This document shows positions 5,727 through 45,655 of a stretch of DNA of 64,000 bases, piece after piece. Each line of letters opens with the position of its first letter. The stretch's first letter is position 1. The stretch comes from Alphaproteobacteria bacterium (GTDB lineage: Bacteria > Pseudomonadota > Alphaproteobacteria > Micropepsales > Micropepsaceae). A program made the position numbers and the translations under genes. The stretch spans positions 3,705-67,704 of the forward strand of contig PLJH01000134.1 of the NCBI GenBank assembly GCA_003139615.1, given 5' to 3'. The notes beneath the pieces were generated by a model that did not search any database, was not told where the DNA came from, and worked only from the letters and a program-made list of their open reading frames with translations.

Positions 5727-6725
5727 ATGGCGGTGCAGGTGACCATCAACGGTGAAGACCGGCAACTCGAGGGCCCGGTGAACATCCGCGAGCTCGTTTC
5801 CGGCCTGGGCCTCGACCCCGCGAAGATCGCGGTTGAGCGCAATCTCGAGATCGTGCCGCGCTCGGCTTACGCGGCCGTGATGGTTGCGCCGGGCGACCGA
5901 TTCGAGATCGTGCATTTCATCGGCGGCGGCAACGCACCGGTCGAGCCGCCGCGTGTCGACACGCCGTTCGTCATAGCCGGCAAGACTTATCGCTCGCGCC
6001 TCATCATCGGCACAGGCAAATACAAGAACTATGCCGAGAACGCGGCGGCACTCGAAGCATCGGGTGCCGAGATCGTGACCGTCGCGGTGCGCCGCGTGAA
6101 TCTCACCGATCCAAACCAGCCGAAGCTGATCGATTTCATCGACCCGAAGAAAGTGACCTATCTGCCCAACACCGCCGGTTGCTTTACCGGCGAAGATGCC
6201 GTGCGCACCTTGCGCCTCGCGCGCGAGGCTGGCGGTTGGACTCTGGTGAAGCTGGAAGTGCTGGGCGAGAAGAAGCTGCTCTATCCCGACATGCTGGAAA
6301 CATTGCGCGCAACCGAGATGCTGACGAAAGACGGCTTCCAGGTGATGGTCTATTGCAGCGACGATCCTCTCATGGCGAAACGGCTGGAGGATATGGGCGC
6401 GGTGGCGATCATGCCGCTGGCGTCGCCCATTGGCTCCGGCATGGGCATTCAGAGCACGATCAACATCCGCATGATCATCGAGGACGCGAAAGTGCCGGTC
6501 ATCGTGGATGCGGGCATCGGCACGGCGTCGGATGCGGCGGTGGCGATGGAGCTCGGCTGCGATGCGGTGATCACAAACACCGGCATCGCGCATGCGAAAG
6601 ACCCCGTGATGATGGCCGCGGCCATGAAGCATGCGGTGGAGGCGGGCAGGCTGGCGTGGCTCGCGGGGCGTATGCCGAAGAAAGCTTACGCCGATCCCTC
6701 GAGCCCGCTCGCGGGATTGATTTGA
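5727..6725 (+). CDS. thiG: Fused ThiS-ThiG (sulfur carrier plus thiazole synthase)
   Basis: N-terminal ThiS ([11 protein letters not shown]...EIVHFIGGG) in frame with ThiG ([25 protein letters not shown]). Confidence 0.95.
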
Positions 6726-20000: not shown

Positions 20001-20759
20001 TGCGGCATGCGCCGTCATCGACACATTGGTGCCGGACAACAATCCGCTGTTGACGGCAGACGCGCGCGCACTGACGTCGTCTTGTGCGGCAAACGACACG
20101 AGTCCGTCGCCTGCGAAATCGACCGTGAATTTGTTCGCGGCGCCCAGCGCAACCGTGCCGAGTTTTGCATTCACCGTACCGGTGTTCGTCACATTCGGCG
20201 CGACCAGCGCCACCATGCCGCCGCTTGCCGCCGTGATAGTTCCGTTATTGACGACAGATGCGTTTTGCTTGCCCGCTTGCGTGAACTTGCCGGACAGAAC
20301 GTCGGAATCCGAGCCGTCCGTGGATGTCGCAATCAGCGAACCGACATTGACCTGCGCGCCTTTGCCGAACAGCACGCCATTGCCGTTGATCAGAACCACA
20401 TGGCCGTTGGCATCGAGGGTACCCAGAATCTGGGAGGCATTCGCACCGCCCACGCGGTTGACAGCGATAGCCTGCGCGTTCGGCTGATAGAATTGTGTCG
20501 TCTGTCCGCTGCCGATGTTGAAGCTGGACCAGTTAATGACAACGTCTTCGGATTTCTGGTTGACGTTCGTCTTGCTCGACGATGTCGAGATCGAAGCCGA
20601 TCCCGTGGTGACCGCGCCGCCGACGGGATTTGCCTGCGCGGTGGATGGGGCGATCAGCGCAATCGCGGCGGCGCTTAAGAGGAGTCTTTTGTTGAAGGCC
20701 TTGCGGCGAGACCTGGTGTTGACGACAACGCACGCGCAATCAGACGCAACGAACGACAT
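17070..20759 (-). CDS. Filamentous haemagglutinin-like exoprotein 1 (haemagglutination-activity domain, GLUG repeats)
   Basis: NWSSFNIG...NRV...ILGTLDANGHVVLINGNG secretion-domain motif; many VGGLVG(E)N repeats; start at MSFVASD. Confidence 0.88.
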   Translation of the reverse strand: MSFVASDCACVVVNTRSRRKAFNKRLLLSAAAIALIAPSTAQANPVGGAVTTGSASISTSSSKTNVNQKSEDVVINWSSFNIGSGQTTQFYQPNAQAIAVNRVGGANASQILGTLDANGHVVLINGNGVLFGKGAQVNVGSLIATSTDGSDSDVLSGKFTQAGKQNASVVNNGTITAASGGMVALVAPNVTNTGTVNAKLGTVALGAANKFTVDFAGDGLVSFAAQDDVSARASAVNSGLLSGTNVSMTAHAANGVATGVVNMSGIIQAQGVQNVGGTIYLNAGNGTLTTTGTLNAAGATGGGRIETSGETANISGHITAGQGGQWKVDPEDLTIDSSAATTIDGALNSGTSVLEQTTSGAAFGVGNQTPGLGDINVESALSWNSTATLTLDAYHSLNIMAPISITGAGGLVLQYNDAATDGALSFGLRPTGFAGNVSYGRKNNHGTLSINGTLYTLLYSMTDVQNIENSASDNYALANSFDASPVSNFNPILLRGVFEGLGNTISNLKIDLPSRSNVGFFGGSSGTIRDFGLVGGSVDGLSTVGALVGENTGTVINTFASVPVSGGNSTNVYEEFGGLVGENDGTIENSHATGTVSGTYYVGGLAGWNNSDATISNSYATGAVSVAFNQAGGLVAENYFLGTISNSYATGAVRGGSSSEAIGGFAGINYGSITDSYASGTVSGLQTIGGFVGQNTIYVGDIGTIKNSYATGAVTETGGNEAGGLVGENDGLIIDDYATGVVRGAGYVGGLVSYNDGTVTDSYWDTETTGQSASSGGTGLTTAQLQDTLPSGFSNAAWGTGTGLYPYLLSQFPSGTPQAISGVISSAGTDVVGQAMNAVVNGATIDAALSMSSGADGYYYLLFAPGTFSPSGGQVIVYGRNGGAFAGASFAEDMTGSLAGVNIANHTLSELANADDYSAVESDLSTAIGDNSAVQSLVDGLNSISIAANVPTFTVDAAIDESGAVSLDTASNLLIHAAITAGSQNTLTLIAGGTIGSNSSGIITAKRLTGSSDSATNLTAANNIADLAGFTSSGQFSLTDATRLVVAAPLIVSGGTTILTVTGAGNSLAINGALNDADQTVDLVSAAGISQTSAGVITAGKLEGSAGRVTLKAANQISDLKAFTISSGDFALTDAQALSVVGTVDDTDQTGKINLVTTSGDLRIDGPGGLDASTVTLVSDQGEVAGKGAITTNLLNVTANTGIDLDGTNNDIGRIGTDQTNSGSNVIDQ

Positions 20760-20982
20760 GGGACCCCCAACGCAGATTGGTCTGCGTCGATGTTCTCTTC
20801 GCGAAAATCGACGCGTTGCGTCGCCACGCCCCACGGCGCCGCCCCGGTCGCCCGACCGATGACAGAAGATTAACCTGTCCGAAAACGACTGTGAAGTGGG
20901 AGAGCCCGGCCGGCCCCGAAAAAAACCAGGATATCCTATGTTGGTCGGCTGCGGACACCCGCGCGACCCGTACGGGTTCGTA

Positions 20983-23900
20983 CTAATCCGCCGTATCGTG
21001 GGTGTTGATGACGTTGGAGCCGGAGTTGGTCGTGTCGGTTTTGACGTGTTCGATGTTGTTGCTCGTGCCGTCGAGATCGATGCCTGTGTCGGCGGTGACG
21101 TTCAGAACCGTGGCGTTGATGTTGCCCGTGCCATAAATTTCGCCCAGCAGCGATGTCAGCGTCATCTCGTTGGCATGCAGCGCGCCGCTGTCGACGAGAT
21201 CGCCCGTTGTCGTGTCCAGCGATATTCCAATGGCCCCCACGGTTCCCGTGACAGTCAGGGTTTGATTGTTGGTCAGGTAGAAATTGGCATCGTTGACGTC
21301 GAATGTGCCCAGATCGGTTATCGAATTAGCGCCCTGGAGGTTCGTCGCGCCGTTTGCGCTTCCGGTGAGCGTTTCCGCCGTGATGACGCTCGATTTCGGA
21401 TCCTGCCAAATCCCGGATCCCGCTTGCAGGTCGACAGTGCCGCCGGCCGTCAAATCGCCGGCAATGACAATGCCGTTGGCTGTGGTGATCAGCGACAGAT
21501 CGCCCGTTCCGGCATTAACGGCTCCGACCACATCGAGCGTGTCGCTGTTCGTGAGCGAGAATCCGCCACTGCCGACATTGCCGAACTGACCCAATCGCGC
21601 GATGTCGTTCGCGCCGTTGAGTGTGACGCCGTTTTCCGAAGTGCCGCGTAACAGACCCGCCGTAATCGCTCCGTCGCCGCTCTCGGAAATCGAACCCGTC
21701 GGATCGTAGAGCCAGAGGGTACCTGTCCCGACATCGAGATCGGTGTTGATGTTGAACGTCGCGGCGGAGTCGTCGATGAAGAGATTTGCATTGGGGGCGA
21801 ACCCGCCAGACGTCGTGTAAAGAAAATCGGTACCGGTGTTACTGCCCACGGCGGTATTGAGCGCGCGGAAGAGTCCAGTAGCGCTGCTGGCGCCGCTCTT
21901 CACGCGCAACTGGCCTTCCTCGATTTCGAAATCGCCGTCGCTGCCGAGCATGTTCCCCGCGTACGCATTACCGGGCGTGCCGTTGGTCAGATAGGCGAAC
22001 ACCGGACTGCCGGAATTCGAAATCGTGTCCGGCGCGAGCAAGAGATAATAATAGCCGTTGGCGCCGGAGTTCATGTCGACGGCGGGCGTCACGCTTTCGC
22101 CGTTGACGAGCAGCGACACGTCGAGTCCCGAAACGTCCGTCTTGCCGTTCGACGCAACCGTAAAGCCAGCAACGACTTGCGGTGCGCCGTTGAATTGCCA
22201 TTGCAGATACGGATAGCTTACGCCCGGAACGATCGCCCACACCAAGCTGGAAAATCCACTCGGCAGGCCGGCCTGCAACGCCGCGGTCGTCTCGCCCGCG
22301 ATGCCGCTGTCGTTTGCGACATTGCCGGCGCCCTGGCTGAGGTTCGTGATCCCGCTCGCGTGGGTGTCCCAATAGGACGACGTGATGTGGCCTGCGGTGG
22401 CGAAGTCGTCGCCCACCAGCCCGCCGACGTCCGTGCTGCCGCTGACCGCACCTGCGGAGTAAGTGGCGCTGATCGTTCCGTCGTTGGTCCCGGCCAGGCC
22501 GCCGACATAATGGACGCCGCTGGCCGCGCCCAAGGCATAGGAGTCGTCGATTGTGGCATAGTTCGCTCCAATCAGACCGCCGACATCGTAGGAGCTGTTC
22601 CCGGCGCTGACGGCGCCTGTCGCATAGGAATATTCGATCACGCCTCCCTGACCGTTTCCTACCAAACCTCCGATGTCTGAATCGTTGCTTCCCGAGGCGC
22701 TGACGGCGCCTGTTGCATAGGAGTTTTCTATCGTTCCGGTGTTGTACCCTGTCACCCCTCCGATACCGGAACTGACAGAGCCGGAGCTGCCGACCGAGCC
22801 TGTTGCAAAAGAACCGTCGATCATGCCGCCATTGTTGACCCCCGCCAGCCCACCGCCATATCCGTCGCTGCTGTTGACCGCGGCCGTGGCATAGGAATCG
22901 TCGATCGTACCAAAGTTCAGTCCGACCAGCCCGCCGACATCGTCGTCTCCGCTGATCGAACCGCCAACCAGCCCGAGATCGCGGATTGTGCCGTTCGCCT
23001 TGCCGAACAGGCCAACAAGACCCGTCGTGGGCAAATCGACGGTCAGATTCGAAATTGTGTTGCCGAGGCCCTCGAAGATGCCGGTGAATCCGCTGCCACT
23101 GGCGCCAAGCGGAATCCAGCCGGTCGTGCCGGACGCATCGAGCGAATTAGCCAGCGCGTAGTTGCCGGTGAGATTGCTGTTGATCGCCTGCGTCTCGGTC
23201 ATCGAATAGACGAGGGTGTAGTTCGTGCTATTGATGGCGAGCGTGCCGCCATTGTTTGTGGTGCCGTATGACACGTTGCCGGCAAAACCACTGGAACCCA
23301 GATCGAAGCTCAAAACCCCGCCCGTGCCGCCGTCATCGGTCTTGAGCACGAGGCCGCCCGCGCCCGAGATCGTGATCGGTGCCGCGATGTTGATGGAATG
23401 ATAGGAATCGAGCGTGAGTGTAGCCGTCGAGTTCCAAGTAAGCGCGCTCGCAACCGTGATGTCGCCTTCGCCAGACGTCTGGTTGCCCGTGCCGGAAGCG
23501 GCGCCGGATGTTGTCTGTTCCAGCACGCTGGTGCCACCGTTAAGTGCCAGATCGATCGTCGTCGCCGCACTGGAATCGATGGTGAGGTCTTCGGGGTCGA
23601 CGTTCCATTGGCCGCCTTTGCCGGCAGTGATGCGGCCGGAGAAATTGGCCGTCTCACCGGAGGTCTCGATGTGTCCGCCGCCGGTTGCGCCGGCTGCGTT
23701 CAATGTTCCCGTCGTGGTCAACGTGCCGTTGCCGGCGTTGAGATAGATCGTACCGCCGACATTCTCGACGCCCTGCGCGGTGATGATGCCGCTCATGTTC
23801 ACGATGCCGGTGGCGATGCCGTTGGCGGCGCGCGCCGTCATCGAGACATTTGCGCCGGACAGGAGGCCCGTATTGATCGCGGATGCACGCGCGTTCACGT

Positions 23901-24579
23901 CACCCTGCGCGGCGAACGACACGAGCCCGTCGCCCGTGAAGTCCACGGTGAATTTGTTCGCCGCACCCAGCGCGACCGTGCCGAGCTTCGCGTTCACCGT
24001 GCCGGTGTTCGTCGCATTCGGCGCAACGAGTGCAACCACGCCGCGGCTTGCCGCAGTGATGGCGCCGTTATTGACGACGGATGCGTTCTGTTTGCCGGCT
24101 TGTGTGAATTTGCCCGAGAGCAGATCGCTGTCCGAACCGTCGGTCGACGTCGCGATCAGCGAACCGACATTGACCTGCGCGCCTTTGCCGATGACGAGGC
24201 CGTTGCCGTTGATCAATACCACGCGCCCGTTGGCATCGAGCGTGCCGAGAATCTGTGACGCGCTTGCGCCGCCGATCCGGTTGACCGCGATGGCTTGCGC
24301 ATTCGGCTGGTAGAATTGCGTCGTCTGTCCACTGCCAATGTTGAAGCTCGACCAGTCGATGACGACGTCTTCGGATTTCTGGTTGACGCTCGTCTTGTTC
24401 GACGATGTCGAGATCGAAACCGATCCCGTCGTCGCCGCGCCGCCGACAGGATTGGCGGAGGCCGGCGCGACGGAGAGAGGCGTTATCGCCAAGAGACCGA
24501 TTCCGCAGGCAACAGCTACCGGAAGGCGAAACGAGGCGGACGATTTCAACGTAACGCGCAAGGAAATGGCAGACGACAT
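20983..24579 (-). CDS. Filamentous haemagglutinin-like exoprotein 2, paralogue of 17070-20759
   Basis: Near-identical N-terminal domain, GLUG repeats, same C-terminal LNVTAxTGIDLDGT...NSGSNVI. Confidence 0.88.
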   Translation of the reverse strand: MSSAISLRVTLKSSASFRLPVAVACGIGLLAITPLSVAPASANPVGGAATTGSVSISTSSNKTSVNQKSEDVVIDWSSFNIGSGQTTQFYQPNAQAIAVNRIGGASASQILGTLDANGRVVLINGNGLVIGKGAQVNVGSLIATSTDGSDSDLLSGKFTQAGKQNASVVNNGAITAASRGVVALVAPNATNTGTVNAKLGTVALGAANKFTVDFTGDGLVSFAAQGDVNARASAINTGLLSGANVSMTARAANGIATGIVNMSGIITAQGVENVGGTIYLNAGNGTLTTTGTLNAAGATGGGHIETSGETANFSGRITAGKGGQWNVDPEDLTIDSSAATTIDLALNGGTSVLEQTTSGAASGTGNQTSGEGDITVASALTWNSTATLTLDSYHSINIAAPITISGAGGLVLKTDDGGTGGVLSFDLGSSGFAGNVSYGTTNNGGTLAINSTNYTLVYSMTETQAINSNLTGNYALANSLDASGTTGWIPLGASGSGFTGIFEGLGNTISNLTVDLPTTGLVGLFGKANGTIRDLGLVGGSISGDDDVGGLVGLNFGTIDDSYATAAVNSSDGYGGGLAGVNNGGMIDGSFATGSVGSSGSVSSGIGGVTGYNTGTIENSYATGAVSASGSNDSDIGGLVGNGQGGVIEYSYATGAVSAGNSSYDVGGLIGANYATIDDSYALGAASGVHYVGGLAGTNDGTISATYSAGAVSGSTDVGGLVGDDFATAGHITSSYWDTHASGITNLSQGAGNVANDSGIAGETTAALQAGLPSGFSSLVWAIVPGVSYPYLQWQFNGAPQVVAGFTVASNGKTDVSGLDVSLLVNGESVTPAVDMNSGANGYYYLLLAPDTISNSGSPVFAYLTNGTPGNAYAGNMLGSDGDFEIEEGQLRVKSGASSATGLFRALNTAVGSNTGTDFLYTTSGGFAPNANLFIDDSAATFNINTDLDVGTGTLWLYDPTGSISESGDGAITAGLLRGTSENGVTLNGANDIARLGQFGNVGSGGFSLTNSDTLDVVGAVNAGTGDLSLITTANGIVIAGDLTAGGTVDLQAGSGIWQDPKSSVITAETLTGSANGATNLQGANSITDLGTFDVNDANFYLTNNQTLTVTGTVGAIGISLDTTTGDLVDSGALHANEMTLTSLLGEIYGTGNINATVLNVTADTGIDLDGTSNNIEHVKTDTTNSGSNVINTHDTAD

Positions 24580-24768
24580 GAAGGCCCCCCACAAGCAGGA
24601 GCAGTCTTGCGAGTGTCGCAGGCGAGACTGCTTCCTGGATTGATTCCGGAACGGAATGCGCAATCCCACCATGCGCAACGGCAGTTCAGTCTATTCGAGC
24701 AAACTTATCAACCCTGCGGCGGGCGCCTGCGCAGGATTGCGATCGTCTTTCGGATGCTGCGTAAGTGT

Positions 24769-32150: not shown

Positions 32151-32250
32151 AATGTGGCGATGGGTTGTGTGGTGCGCCCCGAAAGGCGACGCTTTTTCGC
32201 GAAATGTGCCTCAACCACAAACCGCAACACATAACCTGTCGCCGGAATCC
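32151..32250 (+). repeat. Island direct repeat, copy A (most diverged)
   Basis: AATGTGGCGATGGGTT...AGGCGACGCTTTTTCGCGAA...CCACAAACCGCAACACATAACCTGTCGCCGGAATC. Confidence 0.85.
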
Positions 32251-33671: not shown

Positions 33672-34601
33672 CTATCCTTCTTCGAAGAAGTCCTCATCGA
33701 CACGCTGCAACTCAAATGTTTCTTCGACTTGGCAACCGACATTGAAGCGAACCATTAAGTCAGCAAGCCCCAGCCCATCGATCAGTACAATGCGCTTGCT
33801 GAGCTGCGCCGCGGTTTCTCGGGCATCTTTCGAAAAGTCAGACGTTGTAACAAACACGCCCTTCGTCGCCCTGACACGGTCTAGACCGCCGAAGAAATCC
33901 CGTATCGCGCCTGGGCCAATATTGTTGCCAGTCGCATACCGTTTGGCTTGAACATACACGCGGTCCAGTCCAAGGATGTCTTGATCGATCAGCCCGTCCA
34001 CGCCACCGTCGCCGGAGCGGCCGATCGCTTTGCCCGCATCTTCGACGCTGCCGCCATAGCCGATTTTCGTCAGTAGTCGTACAATTAGCCGCTCGAAAAA
34101 GTCCGGCTTCGCGTTTTGTATGCGATCGATCAACTCTGCCTTAAGTACGTCGGTGCTGCGGCGATGCGCACGGCGCAATAAATCTTCGGGCGTATCGGTA
34201 TCCTGATCCCGAACAGGCATCTGAGGGGTCGCGGATTCGGCGTTACGCGATTGGGACGCTCGAGTCCGCTCCTTGAATTCTTGATATTCTTTGAATTGTT
34301 CGAGATAGCGTCCGTCAATTTTTTCTAAACCGGCTTGCAGGGTGGACCGACCACGGTCAGTGAGTTGGAATACGCCCCTGCGTACATATTCAACAAGACC
34401 CGCCTGCTTCAGGTACGATTTTGCCCAATGAACTCGATTTGCAATTAACGTCTGCCGCCCGGATGGCAACATCACATTCCGTTCGTCGTCAGTCAGCCGA
34501 AGCTCCTCGGCAACGCGTTCGACGACGTCACTGATTGCTGCTGGACCACTCGCCACTGACCGCAGCACGGGAAGCATTAGCGCCTGATAGTCTGGTATCA
34601 T
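33672..34601 (-). CDS. mrr: Mrr family type IV restriction endonuclease
   Basis: MIPDYQALMLP Mrr_N start, NRVHWAKSYL, DGGVDG...VYVQAKRY catalytic D-QxK. Confidence 0.95.
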   Translation of the reverse strand: MIPDYQALMLPVLRSVASGPAAISDVVERVAEELRLTDDERNVMLPSGRQTLIANRVHWAKSYLKQAGLVEYVRRGVFQLTDRGRSTLQAGLEKIDGRYLEQFKEYQEFKERTRASQSRNAESATPQMPVRDQDTDTPEDLLRRAHRRSTDVLKAELIDRIQNAKPDFFERLIVRLLTKIGYGGSVEDAGKAIGRSGDGGVDGLIDQDILGLDRVYVQAKRYATGNNIGPGAIRDFFGGLDRVRATKGVFVTTSDFSKDARETAAQLSKRIVLIDGLGLADLMVRFNVGCQVEETFELQRVDEDFFEEG

Positions 34602-34832
34602 TTCCATCACACAATTCTGAAATGCCCTGCGTTGTATCAATTACTATAGGGGATGTCTCACGAACTAGGATCAGTCGACAGTTTGCCTATTCACCAGACG
34701 CGACGCCGCGCGAATTGATCGAGAATCCCCATCGTGTTGCCATAACCGTTTAAATTCCCCTCGTCACTTCCGCCGAGCTTGTTCCGCGGCGCCGATCGCC
34801 TGACGCATTCACAGCCCGCGACCTTCGCCTGG

Positions 34833-37608: not shown

Positions 37609-39547
37609 GTGCGCCGGGAGACCGGCAGAAAGTAGGCGGTGAGAGTCCGCTGCAGTGAAGGAGGAGCGATCCACACTGGCCCCGAGTCATGCGCGTTGCA
37701 TCGCGAGGTGCAGGGCGAAGCGTTGACAGGGGAAGATGCAGGCCAGCCATTGAGCGGCGAAAGCGCCTATCCCGGATGCCGATGTTGTTAACCTGATAGA
37801 AGGCGACACGGGCACGACCGATATCGCGAGGACGTGCACGATCCGGCGTCGTCTGAGACCCTGGCATGCATCGACGCTTTCTGCACGGGAACCGGGAGGT
37901 CTCCAAGCTTACCTCGCGCGGTCGTGCGCGAGGCATCAACGGGAAGGTGATGAACCGAAAGCCGATGAAACGAAGCGTGGAGAAGTCGGACACGCCGATA
38001 GTACCTGTGAAGCGTGCGAACAATGCGGACTTGTCCTCCGGAGCCTTGGCGAAGGAGGAGCAATCCGCAACGGAGTGCGTGGAGGGAAGCGGCGTGAAGG
38101 AGAGAAATGCGGACTTGCAAAGCACGCTCCGGACGCAGAGCCGGGTCGGCGTGTCACAGGCGCAGGAACGCATACGAGAAGCGATCACCAGAAACGAACA
38201 GGAGCAACTGACAGCGCTCCTCCATCACGTGACTGTCGACGGGTTGCGCGCGGCATTCTTCGGTTTGAAGCGCGATGCGGCGCCCGGCGTGGATCGCGTG
38301 ACATGGAAGGAGTACGCGGACGGGTTGGAAGAGCGGCTTGCCGATCTTCACGGCCGCGTACATCGCGGAGCGTACCGGGCGCTGCCGTCGCGACGGAAGT
38401 TCATTCCGAAGCCGGACGGCAGATTGCGACCGCTCGGCATCGCAGCTCTGGAAGACAAGATCGTCCAGTCGGCGATGGTGGCGATCCTGACGCCTGTCTA
38501 CGAGGCGGAGTTCCTGGGGTTCAGCTATGGGTTCCGGCCCGGGCGCAGCCAGCACAATGCGCTGGATGCGCTCGCATTCGGAATCGCAAGACGAAAGGTG
38601 CGATGGGTCCTCGACGCCGACATCCAGTCGTTCTTCGACCGGATCAGCCATGAATGGTTGGTCAAGTTCGTCGAACACCGGATCGGCGACAAGCGCGTCA
38701 TCCGCTTGATCCGGAAATGGCTCAAGGCAGGCGTGCTTGAGGACGGCATCGAGATCGAGACGACGCAAGGAACGCCGCAGGGCGCTGTCATCAGCCCGCT
38801 GCTGGCGAACATCTACCTGCACTATGTCTACGATCTCTGGGCTCAACAGTGGCGCAAGCGGCAGAGTAACGGCGACATGATCGTCGTGCGGTGCCGACGA
38901 CACCATCGTCGGGTTCGAGCACCGTAGTGACGCAGAGAAGTTCTTGAAAGACTTGCACATCAGACTGGCGCAGTTCGGCCTGAACTTGCACCCCGAAAAG
39001 ACACGGCTGATCGAGTTCGGCAGAGATGCCATCGACGACCGTGCCCAACGGGGCGAGGGTAAGCCCGATACGTTCGACTTCCTCGGCTTCACGCATTACT
39101 GCACGAGAAAGAAGGACGGAACGGGCTTCAAACTCGGCCGCAAGACACAGGCCAAACGCAAACGCGCCAAGCTGAAAGCGATCAAGGACGCTCTGCGAAG
39201 GAACATGCACAAGCCGATCGACGAGCAGGGGCGTTGGCTGGCGGCCGTACTGCGAGGCTACTTCGCGTACTTCGCAGTGCCGACCAACAGCCCGTCACTA
39301 TCGGCATTCCGCCAACAGGTGAAAGAACGCTGGCTTCGCGTCCTGCGACGCCGCAGTCAGCGTTCGATCCTCACGTTCGAACGGATGCAGAAAATCGTCG
39401 ACCGGTATCTGCCTGTCCCGCACGTCTTACATCCGTGGCCCGAACAACGCTTCCTCGTCACTCACTCGACTTAAGAGCCGGATGCGGGAATCCCGCCAGT
39501 CCGGATCTGTGCGGGGGGCGCTCAGCAATGAGCGTCCCTACCGCGAC
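37609..39547 (+). mobile_element. Group II intron (RT/maturase, no endonuclease domain)
   Basis: 5' GTGCG; domain V GAGCCGGATGCGGGAATCCCGCCAGTCCGGATCTG from 39475; domain VI ending CCCTACCGCGAC; excision restores the repeat sequence. Confidence 0.95.
37950..39474 (+). pseudogene. ltrA: Group II intron reverse transcriptase/maturase, frameshifted at YADD
   Basis: RPLGI, SYGFRPGR, DADI, GTPQG; CGG-T-GCC-GAC-GAC at 38889-38901 lacks 2 nt of the Tyr codon; frame continues ADDTIVGFE; start approximate. Confidence 0.9.
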
Positions 39548-39632
39548 AGCGTCGCATGTCGGTAGGCGACGCTTCTTCGCGAGCCGCGCCTCCGCCACAA
39601 ACTGCAACACATCACCCGTCGTCGGAATCTCC
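39548..39632 (+). repeat. Island direct repeat, copy B, 3' part
   Basis: AGCGTCGCATGTCGGTAGGCGACGCTTCTTCGCGA...CCGCCACAAACTGCAACACATCACCCGTCGTCGGAATCTCC. Confidence 0.9.
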
Positions 39633-39682
39633 CGCTCCCAGCGTTGTCGCCGGTCCCCGGACCGGCCGCAAGCCGACCGCAC

Positions 39683-40576: not shown

Positions 40577-40809
40577 AACGTGGCGACGGGTTAAGCGTTG
40601 CGCGTCGGAAGGCGACGCTTCTTCTTCGCAAACTGCGCCTCCGCCACAAACGGCAACACATCAGCTGTCGTCGGAATCTCCAGTCTCCGGAATCTCCGGT
40701 CACAGACGCAACCTGTTATTGGGACATGACGACGAGCGGCATCACCATTCCGACGCCAGCCACGGGAAACACGCGCAACGAACCCGGCATCACGGGCCCG
40801 AGCACGACG
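40577..40809 (+). repeat. Island direct repeat, copy C (long form)
   Basis: Aligns with 44574-44796 over ~230 bp including GGAATCTCCAGTCTCCGGAATCTCCGGTCACAGAC and GGGAAACACGCGCAACGAACCCGGCATCACGGG. Confidence 0.92.
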
Positions 40810-40829
40810 CGGGCGGAACACGGGGACGG

Positions 40830-40922
40830 AACACGGGGACGTGAAATCGATTTCCGAAGTTTCCCGCGGCTACGGCCGCGAATCACCGCTCCTCTTGTAA
40901 TGGATTAAACGTCCCCGCATTC
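40830..40922. mobile_element. Non-autonomous mini-element (REPIN/MITE) related to the ends of the 42042-42958 element
   Basis: Left ACACGGGGACGTGAAATCGATTTCC; right CTCTTGTAATGGATTAAACGTCCCCGCATTC mirrors CTCTTGTAACGAAATGGATTAGACGTCCCCGTATTTC at the transposase 3' end. Confidence 0.8.
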
Positions 40923-41434
40923 TTGAAGGCGTAGGCGCAGGTTTAACGTTCAATAATTCGACCGACCCTGTCACTGGTATGCCTTATTTGGGTGCAAACG
41001 GTCAAGCTATTGATGTAGTCGATGCTTATGCGGCGGGACCGTCGGCTGGAGATGGCAGCGACGTCGGAGATGTCTCGAACTTGCAATTCTTCCCTACTCG
41101 GGCCGCTCTGAACAGCTTTCTAGATGCTCAACCTCCTAATACCTGGACTGAAATATACGGCGACAGCAATGCGAACGGGCCGGGAGGGATTGGTGAGTCA
41201 TACATTTTCGCAGGTGCTGTGGACCCCGGATGGGACCCAGGCTTTACCCCGATATTTTATGCGGGCCAGAATCCCTCATTCAAATTCTCAGCGGACCAAT
41301 TGGCCAATGTTGTATATGGACACGAACTTAGCCACCTTAATTTGAATGGTGTTCCGGGCAATCTTGGGAACAAAGCAGGTGAAAAAGCGGCCTGGATTGC
41401 CGGCTTTAAATGGGCAGGTCTAACGGGCTATTAA
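40922..41434 (+). pseudogene. 5'-truncated orphan polymorphic-toxin tip with HExxH motif
   Basis: Frame is open from the mini-element end; no SD at ATG 40979; YGHELSH; AT-richer than core genes. Confidence 0.6.
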
Positions 41435-41501
41435 TTCATGCTTGCCAACAGTCGCGCTAAGTCAGAATATCTCTGGGTGGCAGACGATTGCGGGAGGAAT
41501 A

Positions 41502-42014
41502 ATGAGACCCGGTCTTGCGGCGCACTATTTCATCGACAAAGTCGGGCGTTACCTGCTTATGACGACATTGGGAATTGGAGTCGTATCTCTGCTACTTACC
41601 ACCACTTCTTCTGGACAGACTCCGGAAAAGCCCTCGCATTTTGATCAGAGACTGCTCATCCTGAGCGCCGGAGGTGCGGCGTGTTCAATTAAGCAAGACG
41701 GCAAACTGATTGAACAGCTTGTTACCCCGATTATAACGAACGAATATTCTGCAAAGATTATTACATTGCATATGTCATCGCAAGACGACATTGTCGTGAC
41801 CTGCTCCAAAGAGGGCTATGACGACCAATCGAGAGTACTTTCCTATGGTCCGGAGACATGGATTGCAGATCATGCACCCTGTCCAGCGCCGGAGCATGCC
41901 AGTACGGAGGAAATTCGAGCAGATTGCGCCAACTACAATTCAGCAACGACGAGTACAAGAATGGAATTCCCGGAAGCGACCTCGCTCCTTCTCAAACGTA
42001 GGGAAGTCAAATAG
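41502..42014 (+). CDS. Exported hypothetical protein, candidate immunity protein
   Basis: GGAGG SD, hydrophobic N-terminal stretch, four Cys, directly after the toxin tip. Confidence 0.6.
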   Translation: MRPGLAAHYFIDKVGRYLLMTTLGIGVVSLLLTTTSSGQTPEKPSHFDQRLLILSAGGAACSIKQDGKLIEQLVTPIITNEYSAKIITLHMSSQDDIVVTCSKEGYDDQSRVLSYGPETWIADHAPCPAPEHASTEEIRADCANYNSATTSTRMEFPEATSLLLKRREVK

Positions 42015-42041
42015 CGAATTCGGGTGTGTCCCTTCTTCCGG

Positions 42042-42958
42042 GAAATACGGGGACGTCTAATCTATTTCCAAATGCAACCACAGTGATGCGTTGCGATTGC
42101 TGCAGCGCAATTCGGGGGACGCTTAATCTATTTTCAAATCTTGTCGTGGTCTGCGCCGACGACAAACCGACACGGGATTCCGGCTCGATAGGCCGTCGTC
42201 GACCTTACGCCGACAAGGCGCGTGGCGATATATTTTGGTCATGGCTCGTCTCGCTCGCATCGTCGTCCCCCGATGTCCGCATCACGTTACCCAGCGCGGC
42301 AATCGGCGCGAGCCCATTTTCTTCGAGGTCGGCGACCAGGAAATCTATCGCGATCTTCTCGCCGAACATTGCAGCAAATCGTCGGTCGAGGTCTGGGCCT
42401 ATTGCTTCATGCCAAACCACGTTCACCTCATTCTCACGCCAAACGACGCCTCGGGTCTCGCGCGGGCATTGGGCGATACGCATCGACGCTACACCACGTT
42501 CGTCAACGCGCGAGGGCGCTGGAGCGGGCATCTTTTCCAGAACCGTTTCGCCTCCGTCGCGATGGACGAAGCCCATCTCATCGCCGCCGTGCGCTATGTC
42601 AGCCTCAATCCCGTGCGCGCAAGGCTGGTGGCGCGTACGGAAGAATGGCCATGGTCGAGCGTTCGCGCCCATCTCGCCGCGCAAGACGACGAACTCGTTG
42701 CGGTGGCGCCGGTTCTGTCACGCGTGCCCGATTTCGAGTCCCTCATCGCGCCGGATGACGGCGACGAGCGCGCCTTTGCGAACATTCGCGCAGCCGAAGG
42801 AACGGGCCGGCCGCTCGGCAACGCGCAATTTATCGAAGGCCTCGAGCGGATTCTCGGCCGCACCATCGCCCGGCGCGCGCCGGGTCGCAAACGAAAGAGC
42901 GGCGATGACGACACGCCGCTGCTCTTGTAACGAAATGGATTAGACGTCCCCGTATTTC
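42042..42958 (+). mobile_element. RAYT-type HUH transposase element bounded by 27-bp inverted repeats
   Basis: GAAATACGGGGACGTCTAATCTATTTC (42042-42068) versus the reverse complement of 42932-42958: one mismatch; extra degenerate copy at 42109-42135. Confidence 0.9.
42241..42930 (+). CDS. Y1 HUH transposase (REP-associated tyrosine transposase / IS200-like)
   Basis: HHVTQRGNRR, YCFMPNHVHL (HUH), LFQNRF, RYVSLNPVRA (catalytic Tyr), WPWSS; frame intact. Confidence 0.93.
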   Translation: MARLARIVVPRCPHHVTQRGNRREPIFFEVGDQEIYRDLLAEHCSKSSVEVWAYCFMPNHVHLILTPNDASGLARALGDTHRRYTTFVNARGRWSGHLFQNRFASVAMDEAHLIAAVRYVSLNPVRARLVARTEEWPWSSVRAHLAAQDDELVAVAPVLSRVPDFESLIAPDDGDERAFANIRAAEGTGRPLGNAQFIEGLERILGRTIARRAPGRKRKSGDDDTPLLL

Positions 42959-42960
42959 GG

Positions 42961-43143
42961 GTATATAACGACAACTGTGGTTGCGATGATGACAACGGAG
43001 CGCAATCTCCCCAGCCAGTACCGTCTCCGACTCCAGAATTGCCGCCGGCTTCTGACGATGAAAAAAAGGCTGTCGTCGAATTGACTGTTGGTGGTGTAAT
43101 ATTCTGGATTATTGTCATCGGGGGGCTGCCCGCCGGAATTTGA
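42961..43143 (+). pseudogene. Start-less C-terminal fragment of a putative polymorphic toxin
   Basis: YNDNCGCDDDNGAQSPQPVPSPTPELPP...VGGVIFWIIVIGGLPAGI*; begins at the element's right end; stop is 2 nt before the next ATG. Confidence 0.5.
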
Positions 43144-43145
43144 AC

Positions 43146-43613
43146 ATGATCAATATCCTAAATCGGCGTGGCGACGTGTTGTTCACATATCCGAATGCTA
43201 ACGGATTAGACTTTGATGGGGCTGATCTTCGTCACGCGACGCTCAAGGGGGCGGTGCTGAATGGAGCGAGTTTTGTCGACGCGGACCTTTCGGACGCGTG
43301 CTTGGAAAACGGCGATCTATATTGGGCAATCCTATTTAGGGCTAATTTGCAACGAGCAAATTTGCGTGGCGCTCTCCTAATGGGTTGTGATCTTAAGGAG
43401 GCAAATTTGAGTCATGCCGACCTGACCAATGCGAATCTCGGGCCAGATAACATGGGCGGATTCACTCATTTGGAAGGGGCAAATCTCTCAAGCTGTAAGA
43501 TCGACGGTGCAATATTGAATGGCGCAATCTATGACATTGCAACGATTTTTCCTGAAGGGTTCGACCCCAGGGACAGCAATATGACTAAGAGAATCCGTAG
43601 ACACGATACGTAA
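43146..43613 (+). CDS. Pentapeptide-repeat protein, candidate immunity protein
   Basis: ADLRHATLKGAVLNGASFVDADLSDACL... A(D/N)Lxx repeats. Confidence 0.88.
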   Translation: MINILNRRGDVLFTYPNANGLDFDGADLRHATLKGAVLNGASFVDADLSDACLENGDLYWAILFRANLQRANLRGALLMGCDLKEANLSHADLTNANLGPDNMGGFTHLEGANLSSCKIDGAILNGAIYDIATIFPEGFDPRDSNMTKRIRRHDT

Positions 43614-43619
43614 ACCTGA

Positions 43620-44420
43620 CAGCGCGTGCAGAAGACCGTCGGCAGGGCCGTAACGGACTTCATCTGTGACCTTTCAGCCACCTGCTCACGGAGGCGAATG
43701 GTGCTTCTGGCGCGATGCTGCTCGAATATATCTGGAACAATGATACTGCGTTTCCCGGGCCAATATACCGACACCGCGACTGCGCTGAACCAGAACTGGT
43801 TCCGCGATTACGATCCTGCGATTGGACGCTATGTCGAGAGTGATCCCGTTGGATTGTTGGGTGGTATCAACACTTACGCTTACGTCGATGGGAACCCGCT
43901 CAGTTTGAAGGACCCTTCGGGCAGATTAGGCTTGGTGGGCGCAGGCATTGGCGCGGGCATCGGCGGAGGCGGGGACCTCGCGTATCAGTTATACGAGAAC
44001 GGTGGACGACTAGGGTGCGTTAACTGGGGACAAGTTGCCGCTGCGGCGGGGATTGGCGCCTTCATCGGCTCGGGGGCCGAATTTCTTTTCGCTGGAGAGG
44101 CGTTGGCAGACACAATCCCGCTATTCAGGGCCGTAAATCCCGCCGAGCTTTCGGACATTGAGGCGACAAGAGGGTTTCGAAATCCCTTTGGTACAGAAGT
44201 TAAGTACTTTTCTACCACCGAAGAGGGCGCTTCATCTTACGCGCAGCAGACTTCCGGAACGGGCTTCTATCAAGGGCCATATACGATCGTTCAAACAACC
44301 GCTCCCGCAGATATCCTCAATAATCCATTGCTCACCAGTACTGTGGATCGTGGTATATCCACCGTGACGGATCCGACTGAAACGCTTCCGCAATTAGGAC
44401 CAATACAAATATTGCCATAA
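43620..44420 (+). pseudogene. Orphan Rhs core fragment plus C-terminal toxin domain
   Basis: LRFPGQY, RDYDPAIGRYVESDPVGLLGGINTYAYVDGNPLSLKDPSG; upstream QRVQKTVG..TDFICDLS/HLLTEANG..EYIW is frameshifted and joined directly to LRFPGQY. Confidence 0.88.
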
Positions 44421-44573
44421 GGTCTTATACGAACTGGATTCGAACTGGATTGGAGTTTGGGGTCAGCGTGCGAATTGGTAGCGTAGAAGGAGTTTGTGGC
44501 GAGGAGTTGAGAAAGCGCTTCTTTGCGAGTGCTTTGCCGGAACCGGATTTGAAGTAGCGTTCCAGACTGGGCG

Positions 44574-44796
44574 AATGTGGCGACGGGTCAGGCGTTGCAC
44601 GTCGGAAGGCGACGCTTCTTCGCGAACTGCGCCTCGGCCACAAGCTGCAGCACATCACCTGTCGTCGAAATCTCCAGTCTCCGGAATCTCCGGTCACAGA
44701 CCCACCCTGTTATTGGGACATGACGACGAGCGGCAATCCGAGCCGGGTGCGGGAAACACGCGCAACGAACCCGGCATCACGGGTCTGAGCACGACG
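44574..44796 (+). repeat. Island direct repeat, copy D (long form)
   Basis: High identity to 40577-40809. Confidence 0.92.
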
Positions 44797-45179
44797 AAGT
44801 GCAGGCGGGATTACCGGCAGGATTCAGCAGCACGATCTGGAGCGAGGGGCATCAATGGTGGGCTGCCTTGTCTCCTCGCGTTGCCGCCGGTGCGAAGCGG
44901 GGAGCGGTTTCTGACCAATTGGGTTGACAGAAGAACCGGGAGGGTCGTAGGCTTCAGAGGAACATTTCATGAACTAAACTGATGGATACGACAAAAACGC
45001 AGCAGCCGATGGACCGGGGGCGTCCTCGCCCGCCTCCTCGAAGCTTTGGCGCGCGAGCCCGCCAACGTCTGCGCAAACGTGACATTCCGGGCGGGCGAGG
45101 ACGCCCGCGGTGCATAAACAATTGCGTGCGTCTTCACGCTTGCATGTCACGTTCAGATGTTGAGCGGGGATTGCTCTCA

Positions 45180-45555
45180 ATCTTTCTTCCCCCGTTTACG
45201 GGGAAAGTACGGCCGAAGGCCGGGATGGGGGCACTCCAAGCGCCGAACGTCCCCCTTCGTCTCGCGCGCCGGCGCGCGCGATCCACTTCCCCCGCATGCG
45301 GGGGAAGAAAGAAGAACGATTCCCTGTTATTCCCTGTTTATCAGGGAATTTCATCGAACGCGGCTCGAACGGATTACGGCACGCGCGGGGCGCGTCCGTT
45401 CACGCGGAGAACGGGCGGATATCAGGCGAAAGAACAGGCGAAATATCAGGCGGAAAACAGGCGAAGATATTGCGTGTTGCTCACGCCAAAAGCCTTGCAA
45501 TCATTGGCTTATTTCTTGCCCGCGCACTGCGCGGGAATTTTTCGCGGTTGAAAGC
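45180..45555. repeat. Composite ~380-bp non-coding element (RIME-like hairpins plus ACAGGC/TCAGGC repeats)
   Basis: Colinear with the reverse complement of 8172-8570: RIME core, CCCTGTTAT..CCTGTTTA.CAGGG, four (A/T)CAGGC repeats, AATTTTTCGC tail. Confidence 0.82.
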
Positions 45556-45655
45556 AGGTTCGGGGCAGGGTCAATCCATTTCCCGGATTTCTTCCCATTG
45601 GACTGCAGCGCGGGAACATTGCCGCTGTTGTTTTATTCCGTCACGTTACTCCGCG

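What the first reader, a model, noticed from the sequence alone, without database searches (positions are those of the whole stretch)
40899..43143. Two orphan toxin tips begin exactly at right ends of the transposase-family element
Seen: after ...ATGGATTAAACGTCCCCGCATT (40899-40922) and after ...ATGGATTAGACGTCCCCGTATTTC (42932-42958) a start-less, AT-richer reading frame begins immediately. Each is in the same frame as the upstream CTCTTG-TAA stop and is followed by a small gene. Inference: the end motif is the junction at which toxin-tip/immunity fragments were captured or truncated, linking a RAYT-like element to polymorphic-toxin tip shuffling. This would be independent of the Rhs-core homology usually invoked.
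Basis: partly seen in the sequence, partly recalled or inferred. Interest (0 to 1): 0.75.

Follow-up and report, generated by a model that had tools for sequence, protein, structure and literature searches.

The report
Transposon ends cut off toxin genes
In a peat bacterium related to Rhizomicrobium, a small mobile element and its miniature hairpin copies sit exactly where two or more bacterial toxin genes were cut, leaving dead toxin tails beside intact, presumed antidote genes. This is a clear and repeated example of transposon-driven decay and reshuffling, but there is no proof of a new mechanism for capturing toxin genes.

Summary
The first motif is the right end of a 95-nt hairpin derivative (40829-40923). 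The second is the right end of an 850-bp insertion sequence (42109-42958) that encodes a tyrosine (Y1/HUH) transposase resembling the REP-associated kind (RAYT).

Contigs from related strains settle tip 1. Window 40925-42040 is 100% identical to the last 170 codons of a 908-codon toxin gene (LysM, polymorphic toxin family) plus its downstream gene. Identity stops 1-2 nt from the element's end.

Tip 2 is also a truncated coding remnant. Other strains keep 133 nt more of it, again abutting the same insertion-sequence end. Whether tip 2 is a toxin is unproven.

I found about eight independent junctions of the form "right end | start-less toxin tail". One is a classical Rhs orphan beside a diverged relative of the transposase in a different metagenome. 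The same ends also truncate a copy of the insertion sequence itself, and all three reading phases occur.

The best reading is repeated insertion followed by deletions anchored at the element's end, in a strain-variable toxin islet. Capture or shuffling by the element is not shown. The only Rhs-core orphan in the window is 43626-44420, and it has no such junction. Interest is moderate.

The parts
40829..40923 (+). 95-nt non-autonomous derivative ('mini-B'). It has a left inverted REP-like end (40829-40858), a short spacer, the last 15 nt of a transposase gene (CCGCTCCTCTTGTAA) and a right end (40899-40923). A 13-nt duplication of its left tip lies just upstream (40816-40828).
   Evidence: Repeat families D3, D19 and I8. 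It is 100% identical over 95 nt to L009:1764-1858, where it has different flanks on both sides. It folds as a long hairpin, -22 kcal/mol, z -3.5.
40925..41434 (+). Tip 1: the 5'-truncated last 170 codons of a polymorphic toxin gene. It encodes a C-terminal domain with a conserved HExxH motif. It has no start codon at its 5' edge and no recognisable ribosome-binding site before the internal ATG at 40979.
   Evidence: It is 100% identical to L025:3512-4021, the 3' end of a 908-codon gene. Five distant homologues all carry this domain at their C-terminus. The parent family has RHS-repeat/LysM plus variable toxin domains. Pfam and NCBIfam give no match.
41502..42014 (+). 170-aa gene 68 nt downstream of tip 1, the presumed cognate immunity gene. 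It is intact.
   Evidence: The identical protein sits at the same 68-nt spacing after the full-length toxin gene in L025 and L026. It has no family match. Its immunity function is inferred from position only.
42041..42108 (.). Left REP (42042-42068, inverted, 96% complementary to the insertion sequence's right end) plus the 39-nt spacer of a REPIN-like doublet ('REPIN-A'). In the window, the insertion sequence stands where the doublet's right REP would be.
   Evidence: Repeat pair I1. The complete doublet is seen at L025:4943-5037 and 6273-6367, and in L029 at this same junction after imm1. The doublet folds at -24.9 kcal/mol, z -6.2. The REP word is about 10-fold over-represented in depth in peat runs.
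42109..42958 (+). 850-bp insertion sequence with imperfect terminal inverted repeats of about 27 nt (AATTCGGGGGACGCTTAATCTATTTTC ... GAAATGGATTAGACGTCCCCGTATTTC).
   Evidence: The boundaries are defined by at least 9 different left flanks and at least 5 different right flanks around copies that are 99.6-100% identical.
42241..42930 (+). tnpA: a 229-aa Y1 (HUH) transposase, with HUH = HVH in ..MPNHVHLIL.. and the catalytic Tyr in ..AVRYVSLNPV..
   Evidence: Pfam Y1_Tnp 42.4 bits (cut-off 23). NCBIfam REP_Tyr_transpos 70.6 bits (cut-off 80). The best solved relative is E. coli TnpA-REP, 4ER8, E 0.0035. The identical protein is found on 24 or more contigs.
42959..43143 (+). Tip 2: a start-less 3' remnant of an unknown gene, ending in a predicted membrane helix. 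Bases 42959-42963 (GGGTA) are not part of the remnant and look like a duplication of the element's tip.
   Evidence: Contigs L015-L021 carry the same insertion-sequence end followed by 133 nt more of the same frame. L009 has a third breakpoint behind a mini-B element. With the insertion sequence removed, the frame runs only 9 codons further upstream. There is no homologue and no family match.
43146..43613 (+). 155-aa pentapeptide-repeat protein starting 2 nt after the tip 2 stop. It may be the immunity partner of the lost gene.
   Evidence: Pfam Pentapeptide 3.6e-26. The identical protein is found on 16 contigs, always behind tip 2.
43626..44420 (+). The only classical Rhs orphan in the window. 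It keeps about 60 residues of the Rhs core (…YDPAIGRYVESDPVGL…DPSG) followed by a 165-aa tail. No REP junction lies at its 5' edge, and no obvious immunity gene lies downstream.
   Evidence: TIGR03696 Rhs_assc_core 2.5e-20, residues 40-99.
40585..40818 (.). Copy of a separate dispersed repeat of about 230 nt. Its partner at 44582-44796 (87.6% identical) lies at the other edge, so the two copies bracket the 3.8-kb islet. Further partial copies are at 39548-39638 and 32173-32249.
   Evidence: In runs X2 and X5 a contig follows the window to 40809 and then continues with sequence resembling 44797 onward. This looks like an islet-free allele.

Best explanation
**What it is.** Window 40.8-44.6 kb is a strain-variable islet of polymorphic toxin debris. 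It has been colonised by an active insertion sequence with a Y1 transposase (850 bp) and by that element's non-autonomous hairpin derivatives. These derivatives are doublets of two inverted REPs, like REPINs.

**How it works.** The elements insert into or beside toxin/immunity modules. These modules are lower in GC, dispensable and probably horizontally acquired. A later deletion with one boundary fixed at the element's terminus removes the 5' part of the toxin gene. What remains is a silent toxin tail that abuts the element's right end, plus an intact downstream gene. That gene is presumably kept because immunity remains useful.

**Most likely route of deletion.** I favour recombination between two same-orientation copies. 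The insertion sequence, mini-B and REPIN-A share ends of 25-95 nt. Breaks made or provoked at the ends themselves may also contribute, because duplicated tips are seen at many junctions.

**Shown.**
- The identity and mobility of the element.
- Tip 1 is a truncated copy of a known full-length gene.
- Breakpoints coincide with element ends at many independent junctions.
- The states differ between strains.

**Inferred.**
- The order of events.
- The molecular route of deletion.
- The immunity function, and selection acting on it.
For: **The element is mobile.**
- An identical 229-aa transposase occurs on 24 or more contigs. Copies are 99.6-100% identical in nucleotide sequence and sit in at least 9 different flanks.
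- Two copies lie on one 2.9-kb contig, L005.

**Tip 1.**
- Window 40925-42040 equals L025:3512-4627 at 100%. This is the last 170 codons of a 908-codon toxin gene plus the identical downstream gene.
- Identity ends 1-2 nt after the mini-element's right end.

**Breakpoints also sit at REP left edges.**
- The window lacks 315 nt that L025 has, and the break lies exactly at the REP left edge, 42040/42041.
- In L005 a copy of the insertion sequence itself is cut at the position equivalent to window 42401, about 10 nt from a REPIN left edge, with a duplicated element tip in between.

**Tip 2.** It has three different breakpoints, each against a right end: the window, L015-L021 and L009.

**Further junctions of the form 'right end | start-less toxin tail'.**
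- L025 orphans A and B.
- The L005 lipase-like tail, 36% identical to the C-terminus of a 1373-aa RHS/LysM protein.
- The L052 Rhs orphan, whose homology to the main gene starts at the first base after the right end.

**No translational role.** All three phases relative to the REP are used, so the REP is not translated as part of the tails.

**The states segregate.**
- Runs X1 and X3 hold the truncated junction.
- Run X2 holds the parent junction and an islet-free allele.

**Precedent.** Orphan toxin modules interrupted by insertion sequences, and orphans lacking upstream homology, are already recorded (PMC3150448).
Against: - No intermediate was found. I did not see a toxin gene simply interrupted by the element with both halves present.
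- No reciprocal product was found either.
- Duplications of the outermost 6-13 nt at many ends are not what plain homologous recombination predicts. GTATTTC is 42-fold enriched just outside right ends. This points to processing at the ends.
- About eight toxin junctions among 46-68 distinct right-end junctions looks like more than a random scatter of insertions would give. However, the sample is biased, because many contigs were fetched through this islet's own proteins.
- In the unbiased metagenome scan, only L052 is clearly a toxin orphan.
- Contigs show presence, not absence, so co-residence of the parent and truncated forms in one genome is not excluded.
Confidence: 0.6

Rival explanations
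1. Portable homology. The element copies and REPIN doublets between modules act as ready-made homology arms. Homologous recombination, either within an array or with incoming DNA, then swaps, adds or deletes whole toxin-immunity modules. The element end takes the place of the downstream arm or of the Rhs-core arm. This would be a functional by-product of the elements, not just decay.
For: - The same imm1 + left REP + spacer (100% identical) is followed by three different continuations: the window, L025 and L029/L057.
- In L025 two 98.9%-identical doublets in direct orientation bracket one module.
- In L052 the element lies exactly between a main Rhs tip/immunity pair and the displaced orphan. 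That is where a right-hand crossover would be needed.
- The whole islet is bracketed by another dispersed repeat and is absent from a related strain.
Against: - The main toxin gene has no REP at the breakpoint, so a tip preceded by a REP cannot be recombined back into frame.
- Tips 1 and 2 lack starts and any upstream homology, so they look like dead ends.
- No two arrays were seen sharing a module in different order.
Confidence: 0.2
2. Transposase-driven capture. The Y1 transposase cleaves at right ends and mobilises or copies the adjacent tip-immunity DNA, by one-ended or end-to-end events. REP-bounded modules would then be cassettes, loosely like integron cassettes or DNA captured by ISCR elements.
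For: - The tip 1-imm1 segment is bounded on both sides, to the base, by REP ends (40924/5 and 42040/1). It is 100% identical to the parent locus, so the event is recent.
- Duplicated tips at ends suggest repeated cleavage and joining there.
- Right ends are over-represented next to toxin tails in this lineage.
Against: - The REPs flanking tip 1-imm1 face inward, which is the reverse of a REPIN or of the insertion sequence. The segment is simply the DNA between two neighbouring elements.
- The module was not seen at any third site.
- The parent and truncated forms were found in different runs.
- The ends also truncate the insertion sequence itself (L005).
- From my own knowledge, no such activity is known for IS200/IS605 or RAYT enzymes, which excise precisely.
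Confidence: 0.12
3. Coincidence. REPs merely settled in non-coding gaps in front of orphans that already existed, and the open frames reach the motif by chance.
For: - REPs are typically extragenic.
- In DNA of 50-60% GC, open frames often run on for tens of codons.
- Being in frame with the TAA is uninformative.
Against: - Homology to full-length or longer versions stops within 0-2 nt of the element's end at tip 1, at L052 and at 42040/1.
- Tip 2 shows different amounts of remnant against the same end.
- The chance of one such coincidence is about 3 in 1000 per junction (my estimate: a 2-3 nt window within roughly 1 kb).
Confidence: 0.03

Closest known systems
Orphan toxin/immunity modules of CDI and Rhs systems (Poole et al. 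2011, PMC3150448)
   Same: Start-less C-terminal toxin fragments, each followed by a small gene, arrayed in one orientation. That paper already notes orphans disrupted by insertion sequences or transposons, and orphans that lack the upstream conserved sequence. Window 43626-44420 and L052:3315-4224 are ordinary members with an Rhs-core remnant.
   Different: Tips 1 and 2 keep no conserved upstream sequence at all. Their 5' edge is the end of a mobile element. The parent of tip 1 is an RHS-repeat/LysM protein without the Rhs-core motif.
REPINs and REP-associated tyrosine transposases (RAYTs) (Bertels et al. 2017, PMC5581495; E. coli TnpA-REP, PDB 4ER8)
   Same: A Y1/HUH transposase flanked by inverted REP-like ends. 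There are 95-nt doublets of two inverted REPs that fold into long hairpins and occur in many copies.
   Different: RAYTs are described as mostly single-copy, vertically inherited and housekeeping-like. Here, identical copies sit at 9 or more sites. The NCBIfam RAYT model scores below its cut-off (70.6 against 80). No link between RAYTs or REPINs and toxin orphans was found in the literature searched.
IS200/IS605-family insertion sequences (IS608, ISDra2; PDB 2XM3)
   Same: The same catalytic family (Pfam Y1_Tnp). A small, multi-copy element with only a transposase gene.
   Different: This element has imperfect terminal inverted repeats of about 27 nt, rather than distinct subterminal hairpins. 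No conserved target sequence was seen beside the left end. The protein is 229 aa, against about 140-165 aa for the solved relatives.
Deletions mediated by insertion sequences, and repeats linked to silent cassettes (H-rpt/ISAs1 inside E. coli Rhs elements; Neisseria dRS3/NIME repeats beside silent maf/tps/pilS cassettes). This entry rests on my own knowledge and was not tested here.
   Same: Mobile or dispersed repeats lie at the boundaries of toxin or surface-protein cassettes and mark rearrangement points.
   Different: The repeats there come from different transposase families. A boundary at the exact end of an element, recurring at many junctions, has not to my knowledge been described for them.

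Membership tests
Y1 (HUH) transposase, IS200/IS605 superfamily | Pfam Y1_Tnp domain above its curated cut-off | tested here: met
   PF01797, 42.4 bits against a cut-off of 23, residues 12-123.
Y1 (HUH) transposase, IS200/IS605 superfamily | HUH motif and a single catalytic tyrosine | tested here: met
   ..MPNHVHLIL.. and ..AVRYVSLNPV.. align with the HmH and dYiyiNPV motifs of 4ER8.
RAYT (REP-associated tyrosine transposase) | Matches the curated RAYT model | tested here: not met
   NF047646 scores 70.6 bits and the cut-off is 80. It is still the best NCBIfam hit.
RAYT (REP-associated tyrosine transposase) | Gene flanked by inverted REP sequences, with REP doublets (REPINs) dispersed in the genome | tested here: met
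   Inverted pair I1, 27 nt at 96%. Doublets occur in L025, L029, L005 and many metagenome loci. Hairpin z scores are -6.2 and -3.5.
RAYT (REP-associated tyrosine transposase) | Single copy per genome, behaving like a housekeeping gene (PMC5581495) | tested here: not met
   Identical copies lie in 9 or more flanks, with two on one contig.
IS200/IS605-type insertion sequence | Multi-copy mobile unit with defined ends | tested here: met
   The ends at 42109 and 42958 are defined by flank divergence.
IS200/IS605-type insertion sequence | Subterminal hairpins, no terminal inverted repeats, and insertion 3' of a fixed tetra- or pentanucleotide next to the left end | tested here: inconclusive
   The ends are imperfect inverted repeats. 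Single ends fold no better than shuffled sequence. The left flanks show no consensus.
Rhs orphan toxin module | Remnant of the Rhs core (TIGR03696; PxxxxDPxGL region) upstream of the variable tail | tested here: not met
   Tips 1 and 2 have no hit. The feature is met only by 43626-44420 (2.5e-20) and by L052 (4.8e-16).
Polymorphic toxin C-terminal domain (any delivery type) | The same domain is found as the variable C-terminus of larger proteins that share a conserved N-terminal region | tested here: met
   Tip 1 equals residues 740-908 of the L025 protein. The family of that protein carries PF05593 and LysM with many different toxin domains at the C-terminus. Distant homologues carry the tip 1 domain C-terminally. 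For tip 2 this is not met: it has no homologue.
Polymorphic toxin C-terminal domain (any delivery type) | Toxicity that is neutralised by the downstream gene's product | not testable with these tools
   Only the conserved gene order and the 68-nt spacing support this.

The most novel reading that the evidence does not exclude
The ends of this family of RAYT-like elements may be true recombination junctions. The tyrosine transposase, or the hairpin ends themselves, would repeatedly join right ends to internal points of toxin genes. REP-bounded tip-immunity modules would then be created and moved as cassettes. That would be a route to toxin and immunity diversification that does not rely on Rhs-core or VENN homology.
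Probability: 0.12. Interest if true: 0.85.

Novelty: new variant of a known kind. Interest (0 to 1): 0.5.

Why it matters
**For polymorphic toxins.** Orphan arrays are usually explained by recombination in the conserved core. Here several orphans, mapped to the base against their parents, were made at the ends of one family of mobile elements. They left immunity genes intact. This is a concrete alternative route to immunity-only islands and to dead toxin tails.

**For REPINs and RAYTs.** This is a multi-copy member that appears to be currently mobile. It comes with two kinds of hairpin derivative and with strain-level presence/absence variation in public peat metagenomes. It sits between insertion sequences of the IS200 type and domesticated RAYTs, and it offers natural junctions (duplicated tips, nested breakpoints) from which the end chemistry could be worked out.

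**Limit.** If the mechanism is only recombination between repeats, the finding is a well-documented instance of a known process.

Tried and rejected
**Searches that gave nothing.**
- Pfam and NCBIfam on tips 1 and 2, imm1, and L025 orphans A and B gave no match.
- The word-indexed protein search found only self for tip 1 and for the longer form of tip 2.
- The full HMMER scan was needed to find five distant relatives of tip 1.
- The AlphaFold model of tip 1 is poor (pLDDT 61). Foldseek against PDB gave nothing below E = 1, so the HExxH 'metallopeptidase' idea remains a sequence motif only.

**Ideas rejected.**
- A shared 'F-E-G' junction motif at the start of tips. The L005 example is in the wrong frame, and the family's conserved part ends 55-150 residues upstream of the tip 1 break.
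- Translation of the REP as a linker (WI(K/R)RPRI). All three phases occur, and the doublet carries a stop.
- The ~230-nt repeats at 40585 and 44582 as duplications made by insertion. They are 87.6% identical and have other copies, so they are a separate dispersed repeat family.
- Micro-homology (TTTC) at breakpoints. It is present at tip 1 but absent at L052.
- A specific tie between the insertion sequence and Rhs arrays. Other copies lie beside unrelated genes, such as an intact RNA 2'-phosphotransferase gene and an IS3 element.

**Limits of the tools.**
- The scan of species-representative genomes found one relative only, in a Rhizomicrobium sp. MAG.
- Metatranscriptome contigs give only 2-6x patches over imm1, tnpA, tip 1 and tip 2/PRP. 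That is too weak to claim expression.
Full report
**1. What is in the sequence**

They belong to a five-member cluster of one motif confined to 40.83-42.95 kb.
- The copy at 42932-42958 is the right end of an 850-bp element.
- I could fix that element's limits precisely. The 229-aa protein it encodes (42241-42930) occurs, residue for residue, on 24 or more public contigs.
- The DNA is 99.6-100% identical from AATTCGGGGGACGC (window 42109) to ...GACGTCCCCGTATTTC (42958). Beyond these points it is unrelated, in at least nine left flanks and five right flanks.

The protein is a Y1/HUH transposase.
- Pfam Y1_Tnp scores 42.4 bits.
- The HVH motif and the RYxxxNP tyrosine are present.
- The best solved relative is E. 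coli TnpA-REP, 4ER8, but the match is weak at E 0.0035.
- The NCBIfam RAYT model is the top hit but falls below its cut-off, 70.6 against 80.
- The ends are imperfect inverted repeats of about 27 nt.

The copy at 40899-40923 is the right end of a 95-nt derivative that I call mini-B (40829-40923).
- It keeps a left REP-like end, a short spacer and the last 15 nt of a transposase gene.
- It is 100% identical to a copy in L009 that has different flanks on both sides.

A second derivative type, REPIN-A, is an inverted REP, a 39-nt spacer and a REP.
- It is complete in L025 (twice), L029, L005 and many metagenome loci.
- In the window only its left REP and spacer remain (42041-42108), with the insertion sequence in place of the right REP.
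- Both doublets fold into long hairpins (z -6.2 and -3.5). Single ends do not fold better than shuffled sequence.
- In peat runs the REP word is about ten-fold deeper than the flanking DNA.

**2. Tip 1**

The frame 40901-41431 has no family match and no word-level homologue. An exhaustive HMMER scan found five distant relatives (182-431 aa). All of them carry the domain at their C-terminus, with a conserved HExxH motif.

The decisive result came from looking up the neighbouring 170-aa protein.
- In L025 and L026 the identical protein follows, at the same 68-nt spacing, a 908-codon gene.
- Window 40925-42040 is 100% identical to L025:3512-4627.
- At the protein level the parent reads ...ASSRF|EGVGAGLTFNNS and the window reads ...WIKRPRIL|EGVGAGLTFNNS.
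- Identity therefore ends 1-2 nt after the last base of mini-B.

The parent belongs to a polymorphic toxin family.
- Relatives are named 'LysM peptidoglycan-binding domain-containing protein [Rhizomicrobium sp.]'.
- They carry RHS repeats, LysM, a glycine-rich region and many different known toxin domains at the C-terminus.
- The conserved part of the family ends at parent residues about 580-685. The cut is at residue 740, so it is not the family's usual swap point.

Tip 1 is thus a genuine toxin C-terminal domain whose gene lost its first 739 or more codons at the element's end.

**3. Tip 2**

The 70-codon frame has no start, no family match and no homologue.
- Removing the insertion sequence in silico extends the frame by only nine codons. 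So the window's insertion-sequence junction does not result from a simple insertion into a longer gene.
- Contigs L015-L021, which carry the same downstream pentapeptide-repeat gene, show the same right end followed by 133 nt more of the same frame (…NPLALPYDPPYPGAP…KKDYNDNCGC…).
- L023 has the window's form.
- L009 has a mini-B right end joined to a 93%-similar copy further in (…|QPVPSPTPEL).

That makes three breakpoints in one remnant, each against a right end. Tip 2 is therefore a truncated coding remnant. Its stop lies 2 nt before the pentapeptide-repeat gene, which suggests a coupled pair. It ends in a membrane helix, and its toxin nature is not shown.

**4. The pattern recurs, but it is not specific to toxins**

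I scanned all loci for the right-end motif: 46 distinct junctions with the strict pattern and 68 with a looser one. Start-less coding tails reach the element's end at these places:
- window tip 1;
- three tip 2 variants;
- L025 orphan A, whose domain recurs at the C-terminus of a longer ORF in L007;
- L025 orphan B, which keeps a VETVIVDG stretch like the parent's VETVVVTG;
- an L005 lipase-like tail (GHSLGG), 36% identical to the C-terminus of a 1373-aa RHS/LysM protein;
- L052.

L052 comes from a different metagenome. It has a diverged 239-aa relative of the transposase. Its tail is a classical Rhs orphan (TIGR03696, 4.8e-16). That orphan's 81.6%-identical match to the upstream main Rhs gene starts at the first base after the right end.

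Other observations limit the claim.
- All three reading phases relative to the REP are used, so the REP is not translated as part of the tails.
- The same ends also cut other things. One is a copy of the insertion sequence itself (L005). Another is the 315 nt missing from the window exactly at 42040/42041.
- Other copies of the insertion sequence lie beside unrelated genes.
- The sample is biased towards this islet. In the unbiased metagenome scan only L052 is a clear toxin orphan.

**5. Population context**

- A scan of one genome per species found the motif in one relative only, a Rhizomicrobium sp. MAG carrying a 75%-identical element.
- In public peat runs, X1 and X3 contain the window's mini-B|tip 1 junction.
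- X2 instead contains the parent junction. The loose end before 40925 reads ...GCAAGTTCTCGTTTC.
- At higher depth, X2 also holds a contig that leaves the window at 40809 and continues with sequence resembling 44797 onward. This is an allele without the 3.8-kb islet.
- The islet is bracketed by two copies (87.6% identical) of another dispersed repeat, which has further copies in the window.
- The window has no large Rhs gene. The nearest large secreted proteins are two TpsA-like genes about 20 kb upstream.

**6. Mechanism**

The simplest account that covers every junction is insertion of the element (or a derivative) into or beside dispensable toxin modules, followed by deletions with one boundary at the element's terminus. 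I favour recombination between same-orientation copies as the main route, for three reasons:
- many copies lie close together in direct orientation;
- one flank is often conserved while the other varies;
- it is the standard way insertion sequences cause deletions.

Against this, many ends carry duplications of their outermost 6-13 nt. Examples are window 40816-40841, L004, L005 and L033, and GTATTTC is 42-fold enriched just outside right ends. This hints at cleavage, slippage and repair at the ends themselves.

I found no simple-insertion intermediate and no evidence that tip-immunity DNA is copied or moved by the transposase. The main gene has no REP at the breakpoint, so REP-preceded tips cannot be swapped back into it through the REP. 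The 'capture/shuffling' reading therefore remains a minority possibility. A 'portable homology' role for the repeats in gaining and losing modules is compatible with the data but is not shown.

**7. Comparison and verdict**

- Orphan toxin modules are known, as are orphans interrupted by insertion sequences and orphans lacking upstream homology (PMC3150448).
- REPINs and RAYTs are known, but they are described as single-copy and housekeeping-like (PMC5581495).
- No paper in the searched library links the two.

What is new is a multi-copy, apparently active element that resembles a RAYT and has REPIN-like derivatives. Its exact ends recur as the 5' boundaries of toxin tails in at least two lineages, and one parent is mapped to the base. 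I rate this a new variant of known kinds, of moderate interest.

Noticed in passing
window 17070-20834 and 20983-24678 (minus strand): Two adjacent proteins of about 1250 aa, each with an N-terminal TPS secretion domain and GLUG motifs (TpsA-like exoproteins of two-partner secretion). They are the only large secreted-toxin-like genes in the window.
   Followed up: partly
window 33672-34640, 37866-38927, 38944-39474: An Mrr-type restriction enzyme, a reverse transcriptase (RVT_1, 1.9e-26) and an ORF with a weak match to the group II intron maturase domain lie just upstream of the islet. The neighbourhood looks like a variable or defence region.
   Followed up: no
window 32173-32249, 39548-39638, 40585-40818, 44582-44796: A separate dispersed repeat of about 230 nt (81-88% between copies). 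On the minus strand it ends in a conserved peptide-like stretch..EIPTT.DVL.FVAEAQFAKK(K)RRLPT.NA*. Two copies bracket the toxin islet.
   Followed up: partly
window 45403-45467; L025:1037-1263 and 4700-4935: A third repeat family contains tandem (A)ACAGGCG units. It lies upstream of the chloride-channel gene in the window. In L025 it lies upstream of the full-length toxin gene and again in front of the REPIN that precedes orphan A.
   Followed up: no
window 40816-40841; L004, L005, L033, L034 and other junctions: The outermost 6-13 nt of REP ends are often directly duplicated (for example GGAACACGGGGACGGAACACGGGGACG). GTATTTC is 42-fold enriched in the 25 nt outside right ends.
   Followed up: partly
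first 25 nt after right ends (window 40922-40930, L005, L040, L036, L052): TTGAAGG occurs three times where 0.11 is expected, and GAAGG occurs in 8 of 68 flanks. This may be a target preference, but the motif was chosen after seeing the data.
   Followed up: partly
window 42074-42084 and 42974-42984: A perfect 11-nt inverted match, GCAACCACAGT / ACTGTGGTTGC, links the REPIN-A spacer and tip 2. The two sites are exactly 900 nt apart, on either side of the insertion sequence.
   Followed up: no
window 40809 / about 44797 (runs X2, X5): A related strain (about 95% identical) appears to lack the whole 3.8-kb islet. Its contig leaves the window at 40809 and continues with sequence resembling 44797 onward.
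   Followed up: partly
window 43626-44420 and 44420-45650: The Rhs-core orphan has no obvious immunity gene downstream. The next 1.2 kb is high in GC and holds long inverted repeats (45009-45115, 45181-45312) and dispersed repeats.
   Followed up: no
L027:~1280-1330: A left end of the insertion sequence follows directly on the sequence equivalent to window ~42770 inside another copy's tnpA. This may be a nested or tandem insertion, or a misassembly at the contig end.
   Followed up: no
L055:1668-2114 (minus strand): A start-less 149-codon frame abuts a REPIN right end. To my eye it resembles the C-terminal part of a DNA methyltransferase, but Pfam and NCBIfam gave no match, so this is a guess.
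   Followed up: partly
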